64,000 nt of DNA from contig CANKVN010000003.1 in NCBI GenBank assembly GCA_947487055.1, positions 5,222-69,221 of the forward strand, in the 5' to 3' direction. A program made the translations under genes and the position numbers. Source of the stretch: Flavobacteriales bacterium (lineage in GTDB: Bacteria; Bacteroidota; Bacteroidia; NS11-12g; UBA955). Shown piece after piece: positions 48,260 to 59,060 of this stretch (positions are counted from its first letter, which is position 1; every line of letters starts with the position of its first letter). The notes below the pieces were generated by a model, which saw nothing but the letters and a program-made list of their open reading frames with translations, ran no database searches and was not told the DNA's origin.

Positions 48260-49678
48260 ATGGTCTTTGCCAGTTTGGTTTTCTTACTTTTCTTCTTTCC
48301 ATTGTCTTTACTGTTCAATTGGCTGCATGGAAACATCAATTACAAGAATATTGTACTGGTCCTGTTTTCTTTAATTTTCTATGCCTGGGGCGAACCTGTT
48401 TGGGTGTTCTTGTTGTTGTTTACTACGCTTGTAGATTTTACCATGGCCCGACTGATTGAAAAAAATGAAAATCACTGGCGGGCAAAAATGTATTTGGGGA
48501 TTTCAGTGTTTTTCAGCCTGGGTATACTAGTGGTATTCAAATATTCAGGTTTTTTATGCGGCATCTTTACGGATATAACCGGATATTCTGTAAAGGCGCC
48601 TAATCTGGCCCTTCCAATAGGCATATCCTTCTATACGTTTCAATCATTAAGTTATATATTGGATGTATATCGCGGCCAGGTTTCGGCACAGAAAAAATAC
48701 CTAAATTATTTACTGTTTATTTCGCTGTTTCACCAGCTTGTTGCCGGCCCTATTGTGCGCTATTCTGATATTGCGCAAGAAATAGAAAAAAGAAGTGCAA
48801 CCTGGGCTGATATTTCCTACGGCGTAAATAGGTTTGCCTGGGGCCTGTTTAAAAAAGTATTTTTTGCCAATACTGCCGGAACACTTGTTGCCAAATACCT
48901 GGAAGGAGATTTGGGAGCCTTGAGTATTTCGGAAGCAATTATGGGTATTTTTCTATTTGCCATACAGCTATACTATGACTTCAGCGGGTATTCAGACATG
49001 GCCATTGGGATGGGAAGAATGCTTGGATTTCATTATCTGGAGAATTTTAACTTTCCATATATAGCAAAATCAATAAAAGAATTTTGGACCCGCTGGCATA
49101 TCAGTTTGGGTTCTTTTTTACGTGATTATTTGTTCACGCCCATAGCATTTAACAAAAGGCATTGGGGTAAATGGGGTGTGATGTATGCATTGTTAATCAC
49201 CTTTGCTTTGAGTGGCCTTTGGCATGGTGCAAGTTGGAATTTTATTTTTTGGGGCTTGTATTTTGCTGTTTTAATCATACTTGAAGAGTGGTTTTTAAAT
49301 CGAATATTTAAATTCATGGGATCCTGGTTATCTCATGTGTATCTTATTTTGGCTGTTTTCTTTAGCTATCCGCTTTTTTATTTTACTGATTTTCAAAAAT
49401 TGAAACAGTATTTTTTTATTTTGTTTTCAGGGTCTCATCCGTGGCAAAAAACAGGATTTACCAGTGACCTTTTAGAGCATATTTATTGGATGATTGCAGC
49501 CATTATATTCCTTACGCCATTGGGTAAAAAAATGGGTGTTTATTTAATCCAAAAATTATCCAATAAGCCTGCTATCATTGGTCTTGCCAACACAATAGCA
49601 TCCATTACTTTCCTATTAATCGCAATTGCATTGCTGGTAGCAAAATCCTTTAACCCGTTTTTATATTTTAGATTTTAA
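48260..49678 (+). CDS. MBOAT family O-acyltransferase (AlgI/PatA/DltB-like)
   Basis: Multi-TM protein with the blocks PIGISFYTFQSLSYILDVYRG and FWTRWHISLGSFLRDYLF. It also contains the conserved His block GLWHGASWNFIFWG. Confidence 0.9.
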   Translation: MVFASLVFLLFFFPLSLLFNWLHGNINYKNIVLVLFSLIFYAWGEPVWVFLLLFTTLVDFTMARLIEKNENHWRAKMYLGISVFFSLGILVVFKYSGFLCGIFTDITGYSVKAPNLALPIGISFYTFQSLSYILDVYRGQVSAQKKYLNYLLFISLFHQLVAGPIVRYSDIAQEIEKRSATWADISYGVNRFAWGLFKKVFFANTAGTLVAKYLEGDLGALSISEAIMGIFLFAIQLYYDFSGYSDMAIGMGRMLGFHYLENFNFPYIAKSIKEFWTRWHISLGSFLRDYLFTPIAFNKRHWGKWGVMYALLITFALSGLWHGASWNFIFWGLYFAVLIILEEWFLNRIFKFMGSWLSHVYLILAVFFSYPLFYFTDFQKLKQYFFILFSGSHPWQKTGFTSDLLEHIYWMIAAIIFLTPLGKKMGVYLIQKLSNKPAIIGLANTIASITFLLIAIALLVAKSFNPFLYFRF

Positions 49679-49679
49679 T

Positions 49680-50966
49680 ATGCGGAAAAATTGGCACCAT
49701 ATATTAAACACGCTATTCCCAATTGGTTTATTGGCGTTTCTCGCTGTTCTTTTTTCTATGATGGGTAAAAAGGAGATTTCTACAAGTGAAAAAAGAAAAC
49801 TGACAGCTTTTCCAGCTTTAAATTGGCAAACCTGGACTGATGGGTCATTTACCAGAACACTGGAAGACTATATTGCTGATCACTTTGCATACAGAGAGGA
49901 TATTATTGCGGGTACCGATGGTATTAAAAATGCGTTTGGAATTGCCCGCAAGAGCAATGAGGGGAAGTTCATAGCGATAAAAAAGAAAAAAGCATCAATT
50001 AAAACCAAAAAAACAACACTGGTAATTGATTCAAATTACACCGTTGCGCTAGACACGGGGGCAGAGCTGTTGCTTACCAATGGTGTGTTTATTTACGACA
50101 GTTGTTCCTATCAGTTTTTTGGTGGAAACAGCTATTCCTCTGCGCGATATGCCAATATGTATAATGCGGTGGTAGAGCACCTTCCTAAGCACATCAAATA
50201 TTATGCTGTGCTGGTGCCCTCGTCTACGGAATTTAACCTTCCTCCCGCCACCTACCGCTATAAAGCAAATTCAGAAACAAAAGGGATCCATTATATTTAT
50301 TCCGGGTTGAATGAAAAAATCGGGAAGGCCGATGTTTATAACCATATGAAGGCCCATAGAAAAGAATATTTATTTTTTAAAACCGATCATCACTGGACTG
50401 CGCGCGGAGCTTACTATGCATACGAAGCTTTCTGCGAAATAGCTGATATCTCTCCGCTTACCCTCGGTCAGATGTCTTCGAAATTTGTTGGAGGTCCGTT
50501 TTTGGGCTCCCTTTACCAACTCACCCACGATCCAACCTTAAAAGCCAATCCGGACAGGCTGGAGATTTTTGATATCCCATTTAACGGAGCCAAGGCTTAT
50601 TATAAGTTTGATGCAAACCAAACGCAGTGGACTCCTACAAAAATAGTGTATAAAAATGGCGAGTTTGGCATTGGATATGGGGTTTTTCTTGGCCTTGATT
50701 ATCCGGTTATGCGGATTGACGGGCCCCAAAAGAATGGAAGAAGGTTGTTTATATTAAAGGAATCTTATGCCAACGCTTTTGTTCCTTTTCTTGTTCCGCA
50801 TTTTGAGCAAATATTTGTGGCAGATGTACGTTATTTCCCTTATAAAATCGATAAATTTATTGAAGAATATAATATTAATGAATTCCTAATGATGAACCAA
50901 TTGGTAATGGCTAACAATCCTTATACCCCCCAAAAAGTGCTGAATATGCTGAAGGGTAAGCAATGA
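49680..50966 (+). CDS. DHHW family protein (AlgJ/AlgX-like SGNH-type O-acetyltransferase)
   Basis: N-terminal TM anchor and the eponymous motif FFKTDHHWTARGAYYAY. It starts 2 nt after the MBOAT stop. Confidence 0.8.
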   Translation: MRKNWHHILNTLFPIGLLAFLAVLFSMMGKKEISTSEKRKLTAFPALNWQTWTDGSFTRTLEDYIADHFAYREDIIAGTDGIKNAFGIARKSNEGKFIAIKKKKASIKTKKTTLVIDSNYTVALDTGAELLLTNGVFIYDSCSYQFFGGNSYSSARYANMYNAVVEHLPKHIKYYAVLVPSSTEFNLPPATYRYKANSETKGIHYIYSGLNEKIGKADVYNHMKAHRKEYLFFKTDHHWTARGAYYAYEAFCEIADISPLTLGQMSSKFVGGPFLGSLYQLTHDPTLKANPDRLEIFDIPFNGAKAYYKFDANQTQWTPTKIVYKNGEFGIGYGVFLGLDYPVMRIDGPQKNGRRLFILKESYANAFVPFLVPHFEQIFVADVRYFPYKIDKFIEEYNINEFLMMNQLVMANNPYTPQKVLNMLKGKQ

Positions 50967-52558
50967 TGCGTGGGTTAATATTTATAATGGCATTGTTAAT
51001 CTTGGGCAATGTAAATGGCCAAAACAGGGATTCTGTTCAGGAATTTGTACTGAATCCAATTGTGGTGGCTGCAGAAAATAATTTTATTGAAAATGATGCA
51101 GCATTAAAGCCATTTTTTCTCATGTTGGATTCCTTAAAAAACAAGAATAAGAAAAAGTTAACCATTGTTCATATCGGAGATTCCCACCTTCAGGGCGATT
51201 ATTTAGCACGCACCATCCGATACCGCTTGCAACACGAGTTCGGGGAAGCCGGGCGTGGTATGGTTTTTCCGTACAGTCTGCTAAATATGTATGGACCGGT
51301 GGATTATAAATGTGTTAGCAATGTTGCCTGGCAGCATTCGCGTATGTTTCCAAGGGAGCGCAATGGTCCGGTTGGTTTGGTTGGATATGCTGTAATGAAT
51401 CAAAGCCCAAACATGAAGCTAACTATTCAGTTGCAGCGGCCAAATCCGCTTTATTATGGAGCATTAACCAATTTTAATGATTATCCCACCAATCAGTTCA
51501 ACAAGCTCAGTATTTTATATTCCAACGATAGCTTAGGGCTTCCATTAAATGTTTCAGGAATACGGGATGACAATAGCCTGGGTCGCCAAATAGAATTGCC
51601 TCAGTATAATTCCAATCAAGGGGGCTTCCAGCTGGGTGAAGTTAATTTGGAATCAACATTTACTTCCCTGCAGATTCAGGCAGATACCCACCGGCATTTC
51701 ACCAAGCCTGTACGTTTGTATGGGCTTAGCTTTGAAAACACCAATGCACATGGAATATTATACCATATGGCCGGGGTGGGTGCATGTCAATTGTCCGATT
51801 TCATGGGAACAACCTATTTTTTTAAACATTTGGTTTCCCTAAAACCAGATTTGGTTATCATTTCTTTAGGGGCTAATGAGTCCTGTACACCTGGTTTTGA
51901 CACGGTAGGTTATTCCAGTAAATTAAAACAGGTAATAGCGGATTTGCGCAATTCCTTACCTGGCGTTCAGGTATTAATTACTACACCTCCAGATATATTG
52001 TTTAGGCGCACCAGACCACCTTCTATGGATGCAATATGCAGAACCCTTGAGCGCACAGCCTTTGCTGCGAACACAGGATTTTGGAATCTCAATAAAAATA
52101 TGGGAGGCGCCTGGTCAAATGCATATTGGTTTCAAAATAAACTTGCCGGACCCGACAGGATTCATTTCGCGCCCCGGGGTTATGATTTTCTTGGCTTGTT
52201 GTTAACGGAAGCCCTCTATAACAGCTATTACCGCTATGCTTTAACCCCTATAGATACCCAATCGGTAAGAAACAGTACCCTGGCTTACCGCAAATTATTT
52301 ACAGCGCTTCAGGTTAATAAAATTAAATCCTCAAACCTTCCACAGCAGACAGTAACTTCTGTGCGAAACAATCCGCAAATACCGGTAAACCACCGTCAAA
52401 TCAGCCATCATGGAGCCAAATACCATAGGGTGGTGAAAGGCGAATCGGTATATTCGATATCAAGAAAATACGGGGTAAACCATAAAGAGGTTTTGAGGCT
52501 GAATGGATTCACCGCAAAAACAATTATCAGACCTGGTCAGACAATCCGTATTCGTTAA
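50963..52558 (+). CDS. secreted SGNH/GDSL hydrolase-fold protein with a C-terminal LysM domain
   Basis: It has a signal peptide. SGNH block I is IVHIGDSHLQGDY, block III is SLGANES and block V is DRIHF. The C-terminal LysM (aa 487-530) is YHRVVKGESVYSISRKYGVNHKEVLRLNGFTAKTIIRPGQTIRI. The start overlaps the upstream stop (ATGA). Confidence 0.8.
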   Translation: MMRGLIFIMALLILGNVNGQNRDSVQEFVLNPIVVAAENNFIENDAALKPFFLMLDSLKNKNKKKLTIVHIGDSHLQGDYLARTIRYRLQHEFGEAGRGMVFPYSLLNMYGPVDYKCVSNVAWQHSRMFPRERNGPVGLVGYAVMNQSPNMKLTIQLQRPNPLYYGALTNFNDYPTNQFNKLSILYSNDSLGLPLNVSGIRDDNSLGRQIELPQYNSNQGGFQLGEVNLESTFTSLQIQADTHRHFTKPVRLYGLSFENTNAHGILYHMAGVGACQLSDFMGTTYFFKHLVSLKPDLVIISLGANESCTPGFDTVGYSSKLKQVIADLRNSLPGVQVLITTPPDILFRRTRPPSMDAICRTLERTAFAANTGFWNLNKNMGGAWSNAYWFQNKLAGPDRIHFAPRGYDFLGLLLTEALYNSYYRYALTPIDTQSVRNSTLAYRKLFTALQVNKIKSSNLPQQTVTSVRNNPQIPVNHRQISHHGAKYHRVVKGESVYSISRKYGVNHKEVLRLNGFTAKTIIRPGQTIRIR

Positions 52559-55461: not shown

Positions 55462-55677
55462 AGATGGGAATGAAAGGGTAAAATGTGATTAAAATATCGA
55501 TCTTGTTGGTTTAGCCATACTTTCACCGTTGGGATTTTTGGATAGTTTCTAAGGTCAAATTAAAGCTAAAGAATAAAAATACTGACCCCCAAAAACCATT
55601 ATTATAAAATAAACAAGAAACCCCAAACGTTAATATGGTAATAATTACAGCCTATATAAATATAAAATAATTATAAC

Positions 55678-55685
55678 TATATTTG
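55678..55685 (+). promoter_or_regulatory. Bacteroidota -7 promoter box (TAnnTTTG) for the low-GC operon
   Basis: Exact TATATTTG, 4 nt upstream of the ATG at 55690. It sits at the end of a 228-nt very AT-rich intergenic region. Confidence 0.45.
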
Positions 55686-55689
55686 ACGA

Positions 55690-56601
55690 ATGATGCTTAT
55701 TAAAAACAAAAAGTACAGGGAGATATTTGCGAGTCAGCCAGAAAACAAATCTGATGTAAGCGCACAGATTACAGCTATATCAAGAAAGGAAGACAAGGAT
55801 TTTCTTTGTCATTATCCCTACATTGGAATGGGAAACCCGGATGCGAAAATATTGTTTGTTGGCAGCGAAAAAGGATTTAACCCATCCACATCAGCAACAA
55901 TAGATTTACATGAGCGAAAATTAAATTTTATACATTGGAATAATATAGTGAATAATTATAATCATTTAAAGGATTATTTTCATCCCATATTAAAGTTGCG
56001 TAATGGCTTGGAGGGTTTTAATCCGTTTTCTCCCCTTACATTAAATGAAACAGCCGAAAAGGTCTATGGCAAGGGAAATCACACCTATAAAAAAATGGAG
56101 AAAATTATTCAGGCACAATTTCTTAATTATGCTACAGCTGCAGAAGCAATCAACCTATTTGAAATTACCCCCGGTTCGTTTCATAAATCACTCTTTAAAC
56201 ATTGTTTTGTAACAGAAATTTCCGATTTGCCAAAAAGCAACCAAAGTCAAGGGAGTGAATTTAATTTTAAAAAATTCAAAAAATCATGCCGCTATAGTCA
56301 TATGCAGACCGGTAGAATAGGAGATTTTTACCGCAGTTTTAAAACCGTTATTATATATGCGGGTAGCAGATATGCAGGTGTACACAATTCCATTCAAAGA
56401 GCTGAAATAATAGCATTATTTAATCCGTTAATAGATATGAAAAAGGATTTCAGGCGAGGTTATGTTTCTGATATTTACGAAACGAAAAAAGGAGGTGCAA
56501 GGATTATTGTATGTCCTCACTTAACCAGCTATGGTATTTTTAGGAATGACTATATACTTTCACATGAGTTTTCGGTAATGGATCTTGGGCAATGTGTATA
56601 G
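55690..56601 (+). CDS. uncharacterised protein with divergent uracil-DNA-glycosylase-superfamily motifs (island gene 1)
   Basis: A 303-codon ORF in AT-rich DNA. GMGNPDAKILFVGSEKG (aa 46-62) parallels family-4 UDG motif A (GEGNPxAxxMFVGEAPG). HCFVTEISDLP parallels the (V)YITN(V)VKCRP strand. KTVIIYAGSRYAG parallels PKxIVxLGxxA. RIIVCPHLTSYG (His277) parallels the xxPTYHPS motif B. All four occur in the canonical order. Confidence 0.6.
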   Translation: MMLIKNKKYREIFASQPENKSDVSAQITAISRKEDKDFLCHYPYIGMGNPDAKILFVGSEKGFNPSTSATIDLHERKLNFIHWNNIVNNYNHLKDYFHPILKLRNGLEGFNPFSPLTLNETAEKVYGKGNHTYKKMEKIIQAQFLNYATAAEAINLFEITPGSFHKSLFKHCFVTEISDLPKSNQSQGSEFNFKKFKKSCRYSHMQTGRIGDFYRSFKTVIIYAGSRYAGVHNSIQRAEIIALFNPLIDMKKDFRRGYVSDIYETKKGGARIIVCPHLTSYGIFRNDYILSHEFSVMDLGQCV

Positions 56602-56608
56602 TTTGGTT

Positions 56609-57409
56609 ATGAAATCACTATATAATAAATTAAACACATATAAGTATATTTGTTGGTACCCCTCGGCCGGTAATGATTTTATGGCATACAGACATTGGTA
56701 TTCAGGAAGGGGTAATTTCATAAAGCCGGATTGTTTTGTTTACACGGACCTATTATACAGGAATATTTATAACCTGAATCAATATGAGAATGAGGGCCTT
56801 ATTATAGATTTACCTATTGATATTTTTAAGGAGTATCCTTCTGATGAAACAGGATATTCTGCGCTATTAAATGAGGATGAAGACACATGGGTAGAAAAAT
56901 ACATTACCGACAATATTGACCTTATATGCAAAGAACCCGATCGAATAGAATTATTAAAAATGGGATTTTATGATGAGGAATTAATAAAAGAATTTCATAA
57001 CTATATAGTTCATAATATAGATTATTTAGTGAGTAATGAGCAGATAAAAACACAATATAAAAATGGGGACATCCCTATTAATATGCTATATCCTTATTTA
57101 AATAAAAACAATGGTAATTACCGTCTTTTTAAGACGGATAAAGCTGATATCTTTATTATTTCTGCAAAAAATCAGCACTTTGCAGCGTATTGCTTAGTCA
57201 ATAATATTGCCATTAATGGAATCATGATAAACCGGCCTATGGATGAATATATCCTTGATGATGATTTTCGTAATGAAGTATTACCAGGTTTGGGGGTAAA
57301 AGAATGTATCGTTAATACAAATTATTTTCCTGGTTATTCTGATTTTGAGGAGTTTTCCTGGTATGAAGACGACAAAATTACAGATCAAGGCAAGTTATTG
57401 TTCTTGTAA
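56609..57409 (+). CDS. hypothetical protein (island gene 2)
   Basis: A 266-aa ORF that starts 7 nt after gene 1. No family recognised. The N-terminal YICWYPSAGNDF...DCFVYTD is faintly Rossmann-like (strand, Gly-rich loop, strand ending in Asp). Confidence 0.55.
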   Translation: MKSLYNKLNTYKYICWYPSAGNDFMAYRHWYSGRGNFIKPDCFVYTDLLYRNIYNLNQYENEGLIIDLPIDIFKEYPSDETGYSALLNEDEDTWVEKYITDNIDLICKEPDRIELLKMGFYDEELIKEFHNYIVHNIDYLVSNEQIKTQYKNGDIPINMLYPYLNKNNGNYRLFKTDKADIFIISAKNQHFAAYCLVNNIAINGIMINRPMDEYILDDDFRNEVLPGLGVKECIVNTNYFPGYSDFEEFSWYEDDKITDQGKLLFL

Positions 57410-57485
57410 ATAATGTTCTTGAATCGTTTTTGATTTATCTTCACAGTGTAGTTACATATAAATTAGTTATAAATTCAATCATAAC

Positions 57486-58391
57486 ATGTCTTATAGTTTT
57501 TCCCAATATCTAAACGCACTTAGAACCAATGAAAATGAAATTCCACTAGTAGATTTAAAAACTGATATCTTCGAAAGCCGGAACGAGGCAGAAAAGGATG
57601 CATTTTTAAAAGCCTTGTGTGGTTATATACGATTAAATCTGATGGGGCCGGAAGAAATACCTGGTTTTTTATTAAAAGACAGGGACGTATTGATTGCCCT
57701 CGGATATGAGGTATGGTCAAAAAAGGATGAGCAAATTGATGCGATAAAAGAACATATCAGGGCATCAGAATTTACTTCTGATTGGTCTTTTATCGAAGCA
57801 CTATTTGACGCTGATGACGGATCTCTGGCAATTTCTGTTGCTGATGAATCGGTGCAGGAATTACCTGAATTTTGGATAGAGGGTTTTAAAAAATGGTATA
57901 ATCAACCACGTGAATATTTTCTAGATTCAAACGATATAGAAAGTATTTATTCTCCACTACCGGATAAATTAAAAAAAGATTTAAATTTTAACAAGCAGCT
58001 GGTTTCCAAAATGCCTGAATTTTTTAGTGCGCTCGACGAATCTTTAAGGGCGAATGAAGCAATTTTAGACATTGCACATGAACAATATTTTTATTTGTTG
58101 TTAAATCGGCCCCAACTATATACTACCTTACCGTCTGAGCTAAAAAGTGACCCTATTTTGTGTGCCGGTGTGTTGGAAAATGATGGAATGATGCTGGTGG
58201 TAATGCCAGAATCCTGCCGGTCCAATGCTGAACTGGCCTATATTGCCATAAAACAAACCCCCAAAGCCATGGAGTGCATACATGATAATTTAACTTATGA
58301 TGTAGCGTTTATCAAACGAACCCTTGATGAATGTCCAGATGCACTAGCCTATTGTATTCCACGTATTAAATATTTATACAACAACGGCTAA
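57486..58391 (+). CDS. hypothetical protein with DUF4116-like repeats (island gene 3)
   Basis: A 301-aa ORF. The C-terminal half has repeated units of the form LP.ELK.D..........ENDGMML..MPE..RSN.ELAYIAIKQTPKAM..I...L..D..FI...L...PDALAY, resembling DUF4116 repeats. Confidence 0.55.
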   Translation: MSYSFSQYLNALRTNENEIPLVDLKTDIFESRNEAEKDAFLKALCGYIRLNLMGPEEIPGFLLKDRDVLIALGYEVWSKKDEQIDAIKEHIRASEFTSDWSFIEALFDADDGSLAISVADESVQELPEFWIEGFKKWYNQPREYFLDSNDIESIYSPLPDKLKKDLNFNKQLVSKMPEFFSALDESLRANEAILDIAHEQYFYLLLNRPQLYTTLPSELKSDPILCAGVLENDGMMLVVMPESCRSNAELAYIAIKQTPKAMECIHDNLTYDVAFIKRTLDECPDALAYCIPRIKYLYNNG

Positions 58392-58424
58392 AATATTTGG
58401 TAACCCTTTTCCGTTAAGGTTTTA

Positions 58425-59051
58425 ATGGATATTAACTTATTTGGTAAATCACCGCAAAATCCTGTAAAAACAAAAGGTATTGAAGAATCAATATTGTATT
58501 TGAATAGCCTATTAACTGAGGACTTAAGGCCTATATTATATCATAGAATACGCTCTGGTATTCGGAAAGATTCAAAACCTATAGACTGTTATGAAGTGAT
58601 GAAAAACGGAGAATTAATAGATTATATTTTCATAGATACCTATGCCTCAGAAAATTCTGTACAAGTTCCCGATGGATACATTTTTTATACCGGCAACAGG
58701 AGATCGATGAACATTAAAGGAATTGAAGTCACCAGTAGTATTGGGGTTAATTATCGAGTGAAAGCATTTCCGGAAGCTTTGCTGGAAAACCAAGAGGAAA
58801 AGCCCTTTTTAAGTCCTCAAAGTGAGGCCTTGCTGTCACTGGTTGTTCTGCGGCAGAGGGAGGATAAAACGGAGTATATGAATCAGATGTACGAAGTGGT
58901 CACCGGGGTAATGCGCGTAGGCCTTGTCCAGCATAAACCTAATGTAGCACAAAGTGCTATAAAGGCATTAATTCAGTATTTTCAGCAGAATGAAGAGTAT
59001 GAAAAATGTGCATCATTGCAAAAATTATTAATGGATATTAATGAGGTCTAA
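58425..59051 (+). CDS. hypothetical protein (island gene 4)
   Basis: A 208-aa ORF that starts 33 nt after gene 3. No family recognised. The C-terminal third is helical. Its stop lies 9 nt from the stop of the convergent ydeI-like gene. Confidence 0.55.
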   Translation: MDINLFGKSPQNPVKTKGIEESILYLNSLLTEDLRPILYHRIRSGIRKDSKPIDCYEVMKNGELIDYIFIDTYASENSVQVPDGYIFYTGNRRSMNIKGIEVTSSIGVNYRVKAFPEALLENQEEKPFLSPQSEALLSLVVLRQREDKTEYMNQMYEVVTGVMRVGLVQHKPNVAQSAIKALIQYFQQNEEYEKCASLQKLLMDINEV

Positions 59052-59060
59052 AAAATGTTA

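What the first reader, a model, noticed from the sequence alone, without database searches (positions are those of the whole stretch)
55690..56601. UDG-superfamily fold with non-canonical catalytic positions
The protein carries, in the canonical order, counterparts of the four conserved blocks of family-4/5 uracil-DNA glycosylases.
- GMGNPDAKILFVGSEKG (nt 55825-55875) corresponds to GEGNPxAxxMFVGEAPG.
- HCFVTEISDLPKSN corresponds to the VYITNxVKCRPPxN strand.
- KTVIIYAGSRYAG corresponds to PKxIVxLGxxA.
- RIIVCPHLTSYG (His at nt 56518-56520) corresponds to motif B, PTYHPS.
The residues differ at the pocket and catalytic positions: GSEKG instead of GEAPG, TE instead of TN, and HLTS instead of HPS. 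The family-4 Fe-S cysteines are not evident. That pattern suggests a glycosylase-fold protein retargeted to another base or modified base, or a non-catalytic DNA-lesion binder. Glycosylase-fold proteins that attack modified phage DNA are a known defence principle, so this gene is the best functional handle on the island.
Basis: partly seen in the sequence, partly recalled or inferred. Interest (0 to 1): 0.65.

Follow-up and report, generated by a model that had tools for sequence, protein, structure and literature searches.

The report
Divergent uracil-DNA-glycosylase-fold gene, retooled pocket
This gene encodes an unannotated, highly divergent member of the uracil-DNA-glycosylase fold whose active-site residues are conserved but changed, much as in the anti-phage glycosylase Brig1, so it is probably a DNA base-excision enzyme aimed at something other than uracil.

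Summary
No Pfam, NCBIfam, PADLOC, PHROG or PDB-sequence search names the protein.

Three lines place it in the UDG superfamily:
- **Window protein model:** AlphaFold pLDDT 86.6. The best PDB matches are UDGs but not significant (E 0.2).
- **Short relative model:** pLDDT 94.2. It hits S. tokodaii family-4 UDG and human TDG at E 1-2e-3, probability 1.0.

Blocks 2-4 are supported only by strand order. The changed positions are the most conserved in the family:
- motif-1 Glu60, 141/142;
- β2 Thr-Glu176, 137/142;
- motif-2 Gln/His/Asn277-Leu-Ser.

His277 is Gln in 80% of members. There is no Fe-S cysteine set. Glu replacing the uracil-reading Asn is also what Brig1 has. By sequence this is not a Brig1 homologue.

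The gene is rare, low in GC and under purifying selection. In relatives it often follows a WYL regulator in variable gene arrays.

Verdict: a real new UDG-fold family. Glycosylase activity and a role in defence are inferred, not shown.

The parts
55690..56601 (+). UDG-fold gene, 303 aa (start at ATG 55690 or 55693)
   Evidence: ORF. 24 close homologues and 396 representatives at E<1e-3. dN/dS 0.15-0.22. AF2 pLDDT 86.6. Foldseek top hits are UDGs.
55819..55875 (+). Pre-β1 loop, β1 and motif 1: Y44-G62, YIGMGNPDAKILFVGSEKG. The invariant Glu60 (nt 55867-55869) sits at the third motif-1 position.
   Evidence: hhalign places it on 1ui0 residues 22-44, P 6.5e-5. Column counts: G46 139, G48 140, N49 131, P50 136, G58 139, E60 141 of 142. 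Strand E54-58.
55876..56199 (+). Helical insertion of about 108 residues between β1 and β2, carrying the conserved E75, N79, W83, FNPxxP (110-115) and H-T-[W/Y] (131-133). About three times longer than the equivalent segment of family-4 UDGs.
   Evidence: Secondary structure. Conservation. Shorter in distant relatives.
56200..56241 (+). β2 block HCFVTEISDLPKSN. Thr175-Glu176 (Glu at nt 56215-56217) sits where UDGs have the uracil-reading Asn.
   Evidence: Strand E173-176. F173 142/142; T175 T118/S24; E176 E137/D4. The Asn equivalence is inferred from strand order. The Brig1 E147 precedent is in PMC11078745.
56341..56379 (+). β3 block KTVIIYAGSRYAG
   Evidence: Strand E219-222. F217 142/142 and Y228 119/142.
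56500..56535 (+). β4 plus motif-2-like RIIVCPHLTSYG, with His277 at nt 56518-56520. The family consensus is T-x-Q-L-S.
   Evidence: Strand E271-274, preceded by a hairpin E254-263. Column 277: Q114/H17/N7. Column 279: S118/T10.
55462..55689 (+). AT-rich intergenic region upstream. TATATTTG at 55678-55685 resembles the Bacteroidetes -7 box TAnnTTTG.
   Evidence: Sequence read by eye. The sigma-70-type scan is uninformative. Inference only.
56585..57409 (+). Islet gene 2 (fam4, 264-274 aa). Motifs CWYPSAGxD, YTD and RPxD. Function unknown.
   Evidence: Weak DUF7663 hits. Co-occurs with the UDG-like gene in 5 of 28 locus groups. No PDB hit.
57486..58391 (+). Islet gene 3, a DUF4116-repeat protein (301 aa)
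   Evidence: PF13475, E 1.4e-9. Co-occurs in 4 of 28 locus groups.
58425..59051 (+). Islet gene 4 (fam1, 208 aa). Its C-terminal ~70 residues recur as separate 86-124-aa proteins in related arrays.
   Evidence: Weak PADLOC PDC-M18A hit, E 0.0044.
55474..59060 (.). Low-GC four-gene islet (32-42% GC against about 46% for the window), between a GH92 gene and a YdeI/DUF1801 gene
   Evidence: Composition. Flanking genes. Same islet in L003, L007 and L023. No flanking repeats, tRNA or integrase.

Best explanation
The gene encodes a member of a previously unannotated, deeply divergent branch of the uracil-DNA-glycosylase (UDG) superfamily. It has the four-stranded parallel-sheet α/β core, plus a helical insertion of about 100 residues between β1 and β2.

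Its N-terminal signature (GxGNPxAxhhhVG) ties it to the family-4/5/UdgX lineage. The active-site residues have been exchanged and then fixed:
- Thr-Glu on β2, where all uracil-specific families have Asn;
- Gln, His or Asn followed by Leu-Ser, where they have His-Pro-Ser.

The most likely mechanism has four steps. (1) The enzyme flips a nucleotide out of DNA into this pocket. (2) It reads the base's Watson-Crick face with the β2 glutamate; like Brig1's Glu147, this suits a base that offers hydrogen-bond donors, such as cytosine-type or otherwise modified bases, rather than uracil. (3) It stabilises the leaving base with Gln/His277. (4) It hydrolyses the N-glycosidic bond, leaving abasic sites.

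The gene sits in a horizontally acquired, fast-evolving, recombining islet. In relatives it lies directly behind BrxR/CapW-type WYL regulators. The target is therefore more probably foreign DNA, such as phage DNA with modified bases, than endogenous damage.

Shown: the ORF, purifying selection, the family and its conservation pattern, the motif-1 homology, the predicted fold, and the context statistics. Inferred: the residue equivalences for β2 and motif 2, catalysis, the substrate class and the biological role.
For: **Fold.**
- Foldseek of the window protein's model (pLDDT 86.6, pTM 0.89) ranks 4zbx and 4zby first, with TDG and UdgX next. None is significant (E 0.2-1.6).
- The model of the 232-aa distant relative P0151 (pLDDT 94.2) hits 4zby at E 1.4e-3 (probability 1.0, TM 0.53), TDG 4z3a at 1.9e-3 (probability 1.0) and 4zbx at 2.1e-3. 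D. radiodurans MUG, UdgX and the poxvirus UDG follow.
- In the viral structure library, phage UDG-like proteins are among the top hits.

**Sequence.**
- hhalign hits motif 1 of family 4 at P 6.5e-5; shuffles reach at most 20.5 against 38.9.
- 1 of 31 distant members touches PF03167 at E 0.056.

**Active site.**
- Column counts: E60 141/142; E176 137 plus 4 Asp; T175 118 Thr and 24 Ser; column 277 Q114/H17/N7; S279 118.
- All these residues lie at the C-terminal ends of predicted β1, β2 and β4.

**Precedent.**
- Brig1 is a proven UDG-fold anti-phage glycosylase. Its best structural match is also 4ZBY. It has Glu147 at the Asn position, and E147A and E147Q abolish defence (PMC11078745).
- The Brig1 family is likewise invisible to Pfam and to profile comparison with family 4.
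- In family 1 the third motif-1 residue, Asp, activates water. It is absent in families 4-6 (PMC5387724).

**Functional gene.** dN/dS is 0.15-0.22.

**Context.**
- Islet GC is 32-42% against about 46% for the window. The target gene has lower GC than its surroundings in 10 of 14 loci.
- The pattern scan found 5 loci in 185,579 species genomes.
- A WYL(-WCX) regulator lies upstream and co-directional in 9 of 28 non-redundant loci. It is directly adjacent in L013, L022 and L038.
- An IetA-like AAA ATPase (PADLOC 6e-26) occurs in 5 of them.
- Islet proteins are 40-55% identical to those of L023, while the flanking TonB receptor and KatG are 70% and 91% identical.
Against: - No Pfam, NCBIfam, PADLOC or PHROG model and no PDB sequence matches the protein.
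- Foldseek E-values are only 1e-3 at best, and 0.2 for the window protein itself. TM-scores are about 0.5.
- Only motif 1 is supported by sequence statistics. The C-terminal half gives nothing. The Glu176/Asn and residue-277/His equivalences therefore rest on predicted strand order, and I could not inspect coordinates.
- Motif 1 lacks the Pro found in every characterised UDG family.
- The family is not detectably homologous to Brig1 (P 0.086).
- The window's islet has no WYL gene, no AAA gene and no known defence gene.
- Its three partner genes are of unknown function.
- Some relatives are solitary among housekeeping genes (L001, L028).
- WYL regulators also control DNA-damage responses.
- No biochemical data exist.
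Confidence: 0.5

Rival explanations
1. It is a genome-maintenance glycosylase. On this reading it is a lineage-specific DNA-repair enzyme of the UDG fold that removes an endogenous lesion. Where a WYL gene precedes it, expression would be induced by DNA damage through a PafBC/DriD-type WYL regulator.
For: - Most characterised UDG-fold proteins are repair enzymes (established knowledge).
- WYL-WCX regulators sit directly upstream in several loci, and this class includes damage-response regulators (own knowledge).
- Purifying selection: dN/dS about 0.17.
- Some loci are solitary among housekeeping genes (L001, L028).
Against: - Extremely patchy distribution: 5 of 185,579 species genomes in the pattern scan.
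- GC is 12 points below the host's.
- Islet proteins diverge much faster than the flanking genes.
- Gene-by-gene recombination within the islet.
- Residence in shuffled arrays with IetA-like ATPases and PADLOC candidate hits.
- The uracil-reading Asn has been replaced.
Confidence: 0.18
2. It is a non-catalytic UDG-fold protein. It could be a DNA or lesion binder, or an immunity or decoy protein kept in polymorphic 'conflict' gene arrays. One example would be protection against DNA-modifying toxins by binding rather than by cutting.
For: - Motif 1 lacks the canonical Pro and the motif-2 His is not conserved.
- The arrays in relatives contain families typical of immunity or accessory gene pools: LprI lysozyme inhibitor, WG repeats, DUF4116 repeats, CAP and peptidases.
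- UdgX and the poxvirus D4 protein show that the fold can serve non-turnover roles (PMC4787834 title and abstract; own knowledge).
Against: - The most conserved columns are polar, catalytic-type residues at the strand ends: E60 141/142, E176 137/142 and Q/H/N277-L-S. That pattern fits an enzyme.
- Gln, His and Asn at position 277 are chemically equivalent hydrogen-bond donors.
- Brig1, with similar substitutions, is an active glycosylase.
Confidence: 0.14
3. It is a mobile-element gene that serves the element rather than the host. It might act as an anti-defence or establishment function of a conjugative or integrative element, for example by processing incoming DNA.
For: - PcfJ-like proteins, typical of conjugative elements, neighbour the gene in four locus groups: L009, L010, L011 and L033.
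- The gene lies in long co-directional arrays of small genes (L008, L015, L027).
- Low GC.
- One hit on a contig classed as viral (L046).
Against: - No integrase, relaxase or transfer genes lie near the window's islet. The rest of the 64-kb window was not annotated.
- The islet is stably placed between the same chromosomal genes in four diverged genomes.
- WYL-WCX regulators are best known next to defence systems (PMC9122601; title and abstract).
Confidence: 0.1
4. The resemblance is coincidental. On this reading the protein has a generic three-layer α/β fold unrelated to UDGs, and the motif match is chance.
For: - There is no significant sequence-database hit.
- Foldseek gives E 0.2 for the window protein.
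- The C-terminal half shows no profile signal.
Against: - The pre-specified profile comparison hits exactly the predicted motif at P 6.5e-5, far above the shuffles.
- Two independent models, searched in two libraries, put UDG-superfamily members first. Three matches (4zby, 4z3a, 4zbx) reach probability 1.0.
- The order of secondary-structure elements from β2 onward, including the hairpin before β4, matches family 4 as I recall the 1ui0 structure (for the models).
Confidence: 0.06

Closest known systems
Family-4 UDG (UDGa; T. thermophilus 1UI0, S. tokodaii 4ZBX/4ZBY) and its relatives family 5 and UdgX
   Same: - Best structural matches.
- Shared GxGNPxAxhhhVG segment leading into β1 and motif 1: 10 of 19 residues identical to 1UI0, hhalign P 6.5e-5.
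- Same strand order, with a hairpin before β4.
   Different: - No 4Fe-4S cysteines.
- Motif 1 is G-[S/K]-E-[K/L]-[G/A], not GE(A/G)PG.
- Glu replaces Asn80 and Gln/His-Leu-Ser replaces His155-Pro-Ser.
- A helical insertion of about 100 residues lies after motif 1.
- No PF03167 hit.
- Rare and islet-borne rather than a core repair gene.
Brig1 (anti-phage α-glucosyl-hmC DNA glycosylase; PMC11078745)
   Same: - UDG fold undetectable by Pfam.
- Same best structural neighbour, 4ZBY.
- Glu at the β2 position where UDGs have Asn; in Brig1 this residue is essential.
- Gln in the segment after β4: Brig1 has VVSSQPG (read from the sequence) and the family consensus here is TxQLS.
- Single small protein, low-GC and mobile context.
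   Different: - No detectable sequence homology: phmmer and hhalign give P 0.086.
- Brig1's motif 1 is GLNPG, with Asn third and Pro kept. Here it is GSEKG, with Glu third and no Pro.
- Brig1 is mainly actinobacterial; this family is mainly found in Bacteroidota.
- Substrate unknown here.
Brig2 and the other integron UDG-like clusters (Getz et al., bioRxiv 10.1101/2025.10.29.685425)
   Same: UDG-like fold found by structure rather than sequence. Homologues include Bacteroidota. They lie in A/T-rich, mobile contexts. Brig2 targets modified thymidines.
   Different: The relation could not be tested. The Brig2 sequence and accession numbers are not in the held text or tables. Identity with one of those 11 clusters cannot be excluded.
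Family-1 UNG
   Same: [quoted passage not shown] In UNG this residue is the water-activating residue (PMC5387724).
   Different: Everything else differs. There is no QD doublet, no Pro-Tyr, no Asn on β2 and no HPSPLS. There is no sequence similarity.

Membership tests
UDG superfamily (fold level) | Three-layer α/β fold with a four-stranded parallel sheet; structural similarity to solved UDGs | tested here: met
   Top Foldseek PDB hits for two models are UDGs. 4zby scores E 1.4e-3 (probability 1.0, TM 0.53) and TDG 4z3a scores 1.9e-3. Phage UDG-like proteins rank high in BFVD. The significance is moderate, not overwhelming.
UDG superfamily (fold level) | Motif 1 (A) at the end of β1 and motif 2 (B) after β4 lining one pocket | tested here: inconclusive
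   Conserved G-x-E-x-[GA] follows β1 and [Q/H/N]-L-S follows β4. Motif 1 was located by hhalign. The motif-2 equivalence rests on strand order only. Model coordinates could not be inspected.
UDG superfamily (fold level) | Match to Pfam PF03167 | tested here: not met
   No hit for the window protein. One of 31 distant members reaches E 0.056. The proven UDG-fold enzyme Brig1 and its 54 homologues also lack the hit, so this test has low power.
UDG superfamily (fold level) | N-glycosidic bond hydrolysis on DNA | not testable with these tools
   Needs enzyme assays.
Family-4 UDG | Four cysteines ligating a 4Fe-4S cluster | tested here: not met
   The four family-4 cysteines (C13, C16, C84 and C100 of 1UI0; one search lists three of them as invariant) have no counterparts. 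Only Cys172 exceeds 50% conservation.
Family-4 UDG | Motif 1 GE(A/G)PG with the E-G/A doublet | tested here: not met
   The protein has GSEKG, and the family has G-[K/Q/S]-E-[K/L/C]-[A/G]. Under the hhalign register, Glu is shifted to the third position.
Family-4 UDG | Pre-β1 GEGxPxAxhMhVG signature | tested here: met
   hhalign P 6.5e-5; shuffle and reversed-profile controls.
Family-4 UDG | Asn on β2 (N80) and His in motif 2 (H155) contacting uracil | tested here: not met
   Glu176 (137/142) sits at the positionally equivalent site. Column 277 is Gln in 114 of 142 members and His in 17. The residue roles come from PMC5387724.
Family-5 UDG (UDGb) | Motif 1 GLAPA without a polar catalytic residue, plus an Fe-S cluster | tested here: not met
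   An invariant Glu lies in motif 1 and there is no cysteine set. The family-5 motif is quoted from my own knowledge.
Brig1 family | Detectable sequence homology to Brig1 | tested here: not met
   hhalign of family against family gives P 0.086. The single Brig1 sequence gives P 0.13.
Brig1 family | Glu replacing the base-reading Asn; 4ZBY as nearest solved structure | tested here: met
   Glu176 by position. 4zby ranks first. Brig1 data come from PMC11078745. This is a functional analogy, not family membership.
Brig1 family | Protection against T-even phages by excision of α-glucosyl-hmC | not testable with these tools
   Needs plaque assays and oligonucleotide assays.
Brig2 / integron UDG-like clusters | Sequence or structural match to Brig2 | not testable with these tools
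   The sequence is not obtainable from the held paper or its truncated tables.
Anti-phage defence gene (generic) | Enrichment next to known defence genes or regulators | tested here: inconclusive
   A WYL(-WCX) regulator lies upstream in 9 of 28 non-redundant loci, and an IetA-like AAA ATPase occurs in 5. PADLOC candidate hits occur within the arrays. None of these is present in the window's own islet. No background rate was computed.

The most novel reading that the evidence does not exclude
The UDG-fold protein is the effector of an undescribed, WYL-regulated anti-mobile-element module. It would recognise a modified base that no known Brig or Dag glycosylase targets, reading it with a Glu/Glu/Gln pocket not seen in any characterised UDG family. 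It would act together with one or more of the genes that repeatedly travel with it: the CWYPSAG-motif protein, the DUF4116 repeat protein, the small fam1 protein, or the IetA-like AAA ATPase.
Probability: 0.2. Interest if true: 0.8.

Novelty: new variant of a known kind. Interest (0 to 1): 0.58.

Why it matters
**Expanding list of defence glycosylases.** Glycosylases that destroy modified phage DNA were recognised only in 2024-2026 (Brig1, Brig2, Brig3 and the Dag families). Each new one has been found by function or by structure, because sequence methods miss them.

**What this family adds.**
- It has 396 representatives at 50% identity, and every source name seen is 'hypothetical protein'.
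- It would be another independent retooling of the UDG pocket.
- Its residue combination has no characterised counterpart: a family-1-like carboxylate in motif 1, a Brig1-like Glu on β2, and Gln in motif 2.

**What it makes testable.**
- It offers a direct test of how pocket chemistry sets base specificity.
- It may yield a new reagent for mapping a modified base.
- It gives a functional entry point into the WYL-to-AAA variable arrays of Bacteroidota. None of their other genes has a known role.

Tried and rejected
**Direct searches, all negative for the window protein**
- Pfam, NCBIfam, PADLOC and PHROGs gave no family.
- phmmer and two profile hmmsearches against PDB sequences returned only noise.

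**hhalign variants**
- Global mode, and a low-mact extension, added only junk beyond motif 1.
- The C-terminal half alone against family 4 gave no signal.

**Brig1**
- I recovered the sequence from the paper's supplement. Neither the single sequence nor a 44-sequence profile matches this family.
- Brig1-family membership is therefore rejected.

**Brig2**
- Four look-ups failed to recover a sequence or accession.

**Other rejected readings**
- Conventional family-4/5 orthologue: rejected on the missing Fe-S cysteines, the changed motifs and the rarity of the gene.
- Domain fusions as functional clues: in L044 the gene reads through into a degraded ftsK duplicate, and in L039 it has an N-terminal TPR-like extension. 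Neither is informative.
- Islet boundaries: no flanking direct or inverted repeats, tRNA or integrase.
- The sigma-70-type promoter and terminator scan was uninformative in this AT-rich stretch.
- The profile of partner gene fam4 against the PDB gave nothing.
- Literature searches for DUF4116, and for UDG together with WYL, found nothing relevant.
The locus sample is therefore biased towards close relatives.
Full report
**1. The observation**

The window has an ORF at 55690..56601 on the + strand (303 aa, starting ATGATG).
- G46-G62 at nt 55825-55875;
- H171-N184;
- K218-G230;
- R271-G282, with His277 at nt 56518-56520.

The gene opens a four-gene, co-directional islet of 32-42% GC in a window of about 46% GC. 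The islet lies between a GH92 glycosidase gene and a YdeI/DUF1801 gene, in what is clearly a Bacteroidota chromosome: TonB receptors, GH92 and KatG surround it. Close relatives come from freshwater Bacteroidia MAGs.

**2. Direct searches are blank**

- Pfam, NCBIfam, PADLOC and PHROGs give nothing for the protein.
- phmmer against PDB sequences gives nothing, and neither do profile searches built from 23 or 142 family members.
- Every homologue that carries a source name is called 'hypothetical protein'.

**3. The family**

- A word-indexed search found 24 homologues with 33-89% identity.
- An exhaustive profile search of 1.84 billion cluster representatives found 396 at E<1e-3 and 123 at E<1e-10. 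Most are 230-310 aa.
- In a 142-sequence alignment the near-invariant columns are these:

| Column | Count of 142 |
|---|---|
| G46 | 139 |
| G48 | 140 |
| N49 | 131 |
| P50 | 136 |
| L55 | 135 |
| G58 | 139 |
| E60 | 141 |
| E75 | 128 |
| N79 | 133 |
| W83 | 140 |
| P112 | 128 |
| T132 | 132 |
| aromatic 133 | W118 / Y21 |
| F173 | 142 |
| T175 | T118 / S24 |
| E176 | E137 / D4 |
| R201 | 137 |
| F213 | 131 |
| F217 | 142 |
| F244 | 130 |
| 277 | Q114 / H17 / N7 |
| 279 | S118 / T10 |

- The family consensus is YIGxGNPxSxILxxGKExAF … ESxxNxxxW … FNPxxP … HTW … CFxTExNxxPS … R … FFxxFxxVI … TxQLS.
- The only cysteine conserved above 50% is Cys172, so there is no Fe-S ligand set.

**4. Is it a UDG? 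Sequence evidence**

I verified a recalled T. thermophilus UDGA sequence as 100% identical to 1UI0. I then collected 120 family-4 UDGs and compared profiles with hhalign.
Residues 40-62 (CHYPYIGMGNPDAKILFVGSEKG) align to 1UI0 residues 22-44 (RTRVVFGEGNPDAKLMIVGEGPG). Probability is 64%, P 6.5e-5, score 38.9.
- The reversed target profile scores 13.9. Sixty column-shuffled targets score at most 20.5.
- Because the comparison was pre-specified by the finding, this P-value is meaningful.
- Nothing beyond motif 1 aligns. The C-terminal half compared alone gives no signal. Blocks 2-4 are therefore not supported by sequence statistics.
- As a calibrator, the experimentally proven UDG-fold enzyme Brig1 and its 54 homologues also have no Pfam hit, and show no profile similarity to family 4 at all (P 0.63). 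Absence of sequence signal is therefore normal for divergent members of this fold.

**5. Structural evidence**

- AlphaFold2 on the 23-sequence alignment gives a confident model of the window protein: pLDDT 86.6, pTM 0.89.
- Its elements run in this order: β1 54-58, a long helical region 69-147, β2 173-176, helices, β3 219-222, a helix, a hairpin at 254-263, β4 271-274, and a C-terminal helix.
- From β2 onward this is the element order of family-4 UDGs as I recall the 1UI0 structure.
- Foldseek against the PDB ranks S. tokodaii family-4 UDG (4zbx, 4zby) first, followed by TDG and UdgX. These matches are not significant: E 0.2-1.6, TM 0.44-0.52 on the target. The 108-residue insertion evidently costs score.
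- I therefore modelled a 232-aa distant relative (P0151, about 24% identical) from the 142-sequence alignment: pLDDT 94.2, pTM 0.91.
- Its top PDB matches are 4zby (E 1.4e-3, probability 1.0, TM 0.53), human TDG 4z3a (1.9e-3, probability 1.0) and 4zbx (2.1e-3). D. radiodurans MUG, UdgX and the monkeypox UDG come lower.
- In the viral structure library, phage UDG-like proteins are again among the best hits, with probability 0.87-0.89.
- The two models and two libraries agree with each other and with the motif-1 profile hit. I take the UDG-superfamily fold as established at roughly 0.8-0.85 confidence.

**6. The active site**

By strand position, and for motif 1 by the hhalign register:
- G58-S-E60-K-G62 occupies motif 1.
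- T175-E176 occupies the end of β2, where Tth UDGA has N80 (hydrogen bonds to N3 and O4 of uracil).
- H277-L-T-S occupies motif 2, where UDGA has H155 (hydrogen bond to O2, leaving-group stabilisation). The UDGA roles come from PMC5387724.

Three points follow.
- **(a) Conservation.** These are the best-conserved polar columns of the family. That argues for a working active site rather than a relic.
- **(b) Motif 1.** Under the hhalign register, Glu60 falls on the third motif-1 position. Family 1 has the water-activating Asp there and family 2 has Asn. Families 4-6 have no such residue.
- **(c) β2.** Glu in place of the base-reading Asn is exactly the substitution in Brig1 (E147). There E147A and E147Q abolish immunity, and the authors assign E147 to hydrogen bonding with the Watson-Crick face of α-glucosyl-hmC (PMC11078745).

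Brig1's nearest solved structure is also 4ZBY. Its segment after the last strand reads VVSSQPG, with Gln where UDGs have His (sequence recovered, numbering checked). Position 133 co-varies with it (W-Q 106, Y-H 12, Y-Q 6, W-H 5), although relatedness of the sequences is not controlled for.

The equivalences for β2 and motif 2 remain inferences. I could not inspect coordinates.

**7. Relation to known defence glycosylases**

- The family is not a sequence homologue of Brig1. hhalign of family against family gives P 0.086. The best local alignment happens to be hairpin-β4-Gln-C-terminal helix, but it is not significant.
- Brig2, a UDG-like integron protein acting on modified thymidines with more than 500 homologues including Bacteroidota, could not be compared. 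Neither its sequence nor its accessions are in the held text.
- Brig3 is AAG-like, not UDG-like.

**8. Genomic context**

**The window's islet**
- The four-gene islet recurs in L003/L004, L007 and L023 (UDG-like protein 89%, 80% and 53% identical) at the same chromosomal site, next to GH92 or a remnant of it.
- Against L023 the islet proteins are 40-55% identical, while the flanking TonB receptor and KatG are 70% and 91% identical.
- All four genes are under purifying selection, with dN/dS 0.13-0.27. Their pairwise dS values are mutually incongruent, which indicates gene-by-gene recombination.

**Rarity and GC**
- The pattern scan of 185,579 species genomes found only 5 loci, all Bacteroidota MAGs.
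- One locus was found on a contig classed as viral.
- The gene has lower GC than its surroundings in 10 of 14 loci with enough flank.

**Relatives' loci**
- I pooled 46 fetched loci and the window into 28 non-redundant groups.
- A WYL or WYL-WCX regulator lies upstream and co-directional in 9 groups. It is immediately adjacent in L013, L022 and L038, including relatives about 23% identical to the window protein.
- A 551-577-aa AAA ATPase lies downstream in 5 groups. It matches PADLOC IetA at 6e-26 and TRIP13 at 7e-14.
- Between these two anchors the arrays shuffle about 15 small gene families. These include the window's three partner genes: fam4 in 5 groups, DUF4116 in 4 and fam1 in 7.
- The arrays also hold proteins matching LprI, WG-repeat, CAP, PP2C, peptidase and DUF2779 models, and PADLOC candidate families (PDC-M21C at 1.8e-13).
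- WYL-WCX regulators of the BrxR type are known to co-localise with diverse defence systems (PMC9122601; title and abstract).
- Four groups instead carry PcfJ-like proteins typical of conjugative elements.
- Several loci are solitary (L001, L012, L021, L028).

**Limits**
- The window itself has no WYL or AAA gene.
- The context is conflict- or mobile-element-like, but it is not a classical, annotated defence island. I computed no background rate.

**9. Mechanism and verdict**

The best-supported reading is a monofunctional DNA glycosylase of the UDG fold. Its pocket has been rebuilt (Glu60 / Glu176 / Gln-or-His277, plus conserved aromatics Trp83, Trp/Tyr133 and Phe173) to take a base other than uracil. 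The base is most plausibly one that presents hydrogen-bond donors to Glu176, as in Brig1. The enzyme would be carried on horizontally exchanged DNA and used against foreign DNA.

My confidence is about 0.8 for the fold, about 0.55 for catalysis and about 0.4 for a defence role, giving 0.5 for the combined statement.

The rivals are:
- a damage-inducible repair enzyme;
- a non-catalytic binder or immunity-type protein;
- a function that serves a mobile element;
- a coincidental resemblance.

A UDG-clan signal exists, and the protein is not a conventional, syntenic, universal family-4/5 orthologue.

**10. Novelty**

This is a new, unannotated family within a known fold and a recently recognised functional class, with an active-site residue combination not described for any UDG family. 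I rate it a new variant of a known kind. Its interest is moderate to high, tempered by the lack of any functional data and by the untested possibility that it coincides with one of the UDG-like clusters already reported from integrons.

Noticed in passing
window 55690-59051, compared with L003:3348-6711 and L007:9992-13359: The four islet genes give incongruent divergences. For the UDG-like gene, the window is closer to L003 (dS 0.33) than to L007 (0.66). For gene 2, the window is closer to L007 (0.15) than to L003 (0.63). For gene 4, L003 and L007 are nearly identical (0.08) while the window is distant (0.75). This indicates gene-by-gene recombination inside the islet. All dN/dS values are 0.13-0.27.
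   Followed up: partly
L005, L008, L013, L015, L027, L029 (whole loci): Co-directional arrays start with a WYL(-WCX) regulator and contain a 551-577-aa IetA-like AAA ATPase. Between these two anchors about 15 small gene families are shuffled from locus to locus, including the window's genes 2-4. The arrays resemble a variable-cargo island type in Bacteroidota that I could not match to a described system.
   Followed up: partly
window 58422-58435 and 59028-59041: An exact 14-nt direct repeat, TTAATGGATATTAA, brackets islet gene 4. The protein starts MDIN and ends LMDINEV. This may be a cassette-boundary or recombination scar, or chance in AT-rich DNA.
   Followed up: no
window 56585-57409 (islet gene 2): This protein family has strictly conserved motifs: CWYPSAGxD…A..HW…GN…P….YTD, N..F…C and RPxD. 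They look catalytic. The only database matches are weak DUF7663 hits (E 0.0026 and 1.5e-4), and there is no PDB hit.
   Followed up: partly
L044:9953-11995: A UDG-like domain (residues 1-235) runs in frame into a degraded second copy of the neighbouring ftsK/spoIIIE gene (L044:5899-8310). This is probably an insertion into a duplicated gene or an assembly chimera, not a functional fusion.
   Followed up: partly
L009, L010, L011, L033: In the Flavobacteriales and 'Chryseobacterium' MAG loci, the UDG-like gene neighbours one to three PcfJ-like proteins of about 750 aa (PF14284, E 8e-13). In L011 it directly follows a DUF2779 nuclease-family protein. L009 and L011 have about 62% GC, which is odd for their taxonomic labels.
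   Followed up: no
window 48260-52558: A second low-GC stretch (35-41% GC) encodes an MBOAT acyltransferase, a DHHW/AlgX-like protein and a GDSL-LysM protein. This looks like a polysaccharide or cell-wall O-acylation cassette.
   Followed up: no
window 55678-55685: TATATTTG matches the Bacteroidetes -7 promoter box TAnnTTTG, only 4 nt before the ATG. That would imply a leaderless or near-leaderless transcript. Read by eye.
   Followed up: no
alignment A3, columns of residues 133 and 277: The aromatic residue of the H-T-[W/Y] motif co-varies with the motif-2 residue: W with Q 106, Y with H 12, Y with Q 6, W with H 5. This hints that the two lie together in the pocket. Relatedness of the sequences was not controlled for.
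   Followed up: no
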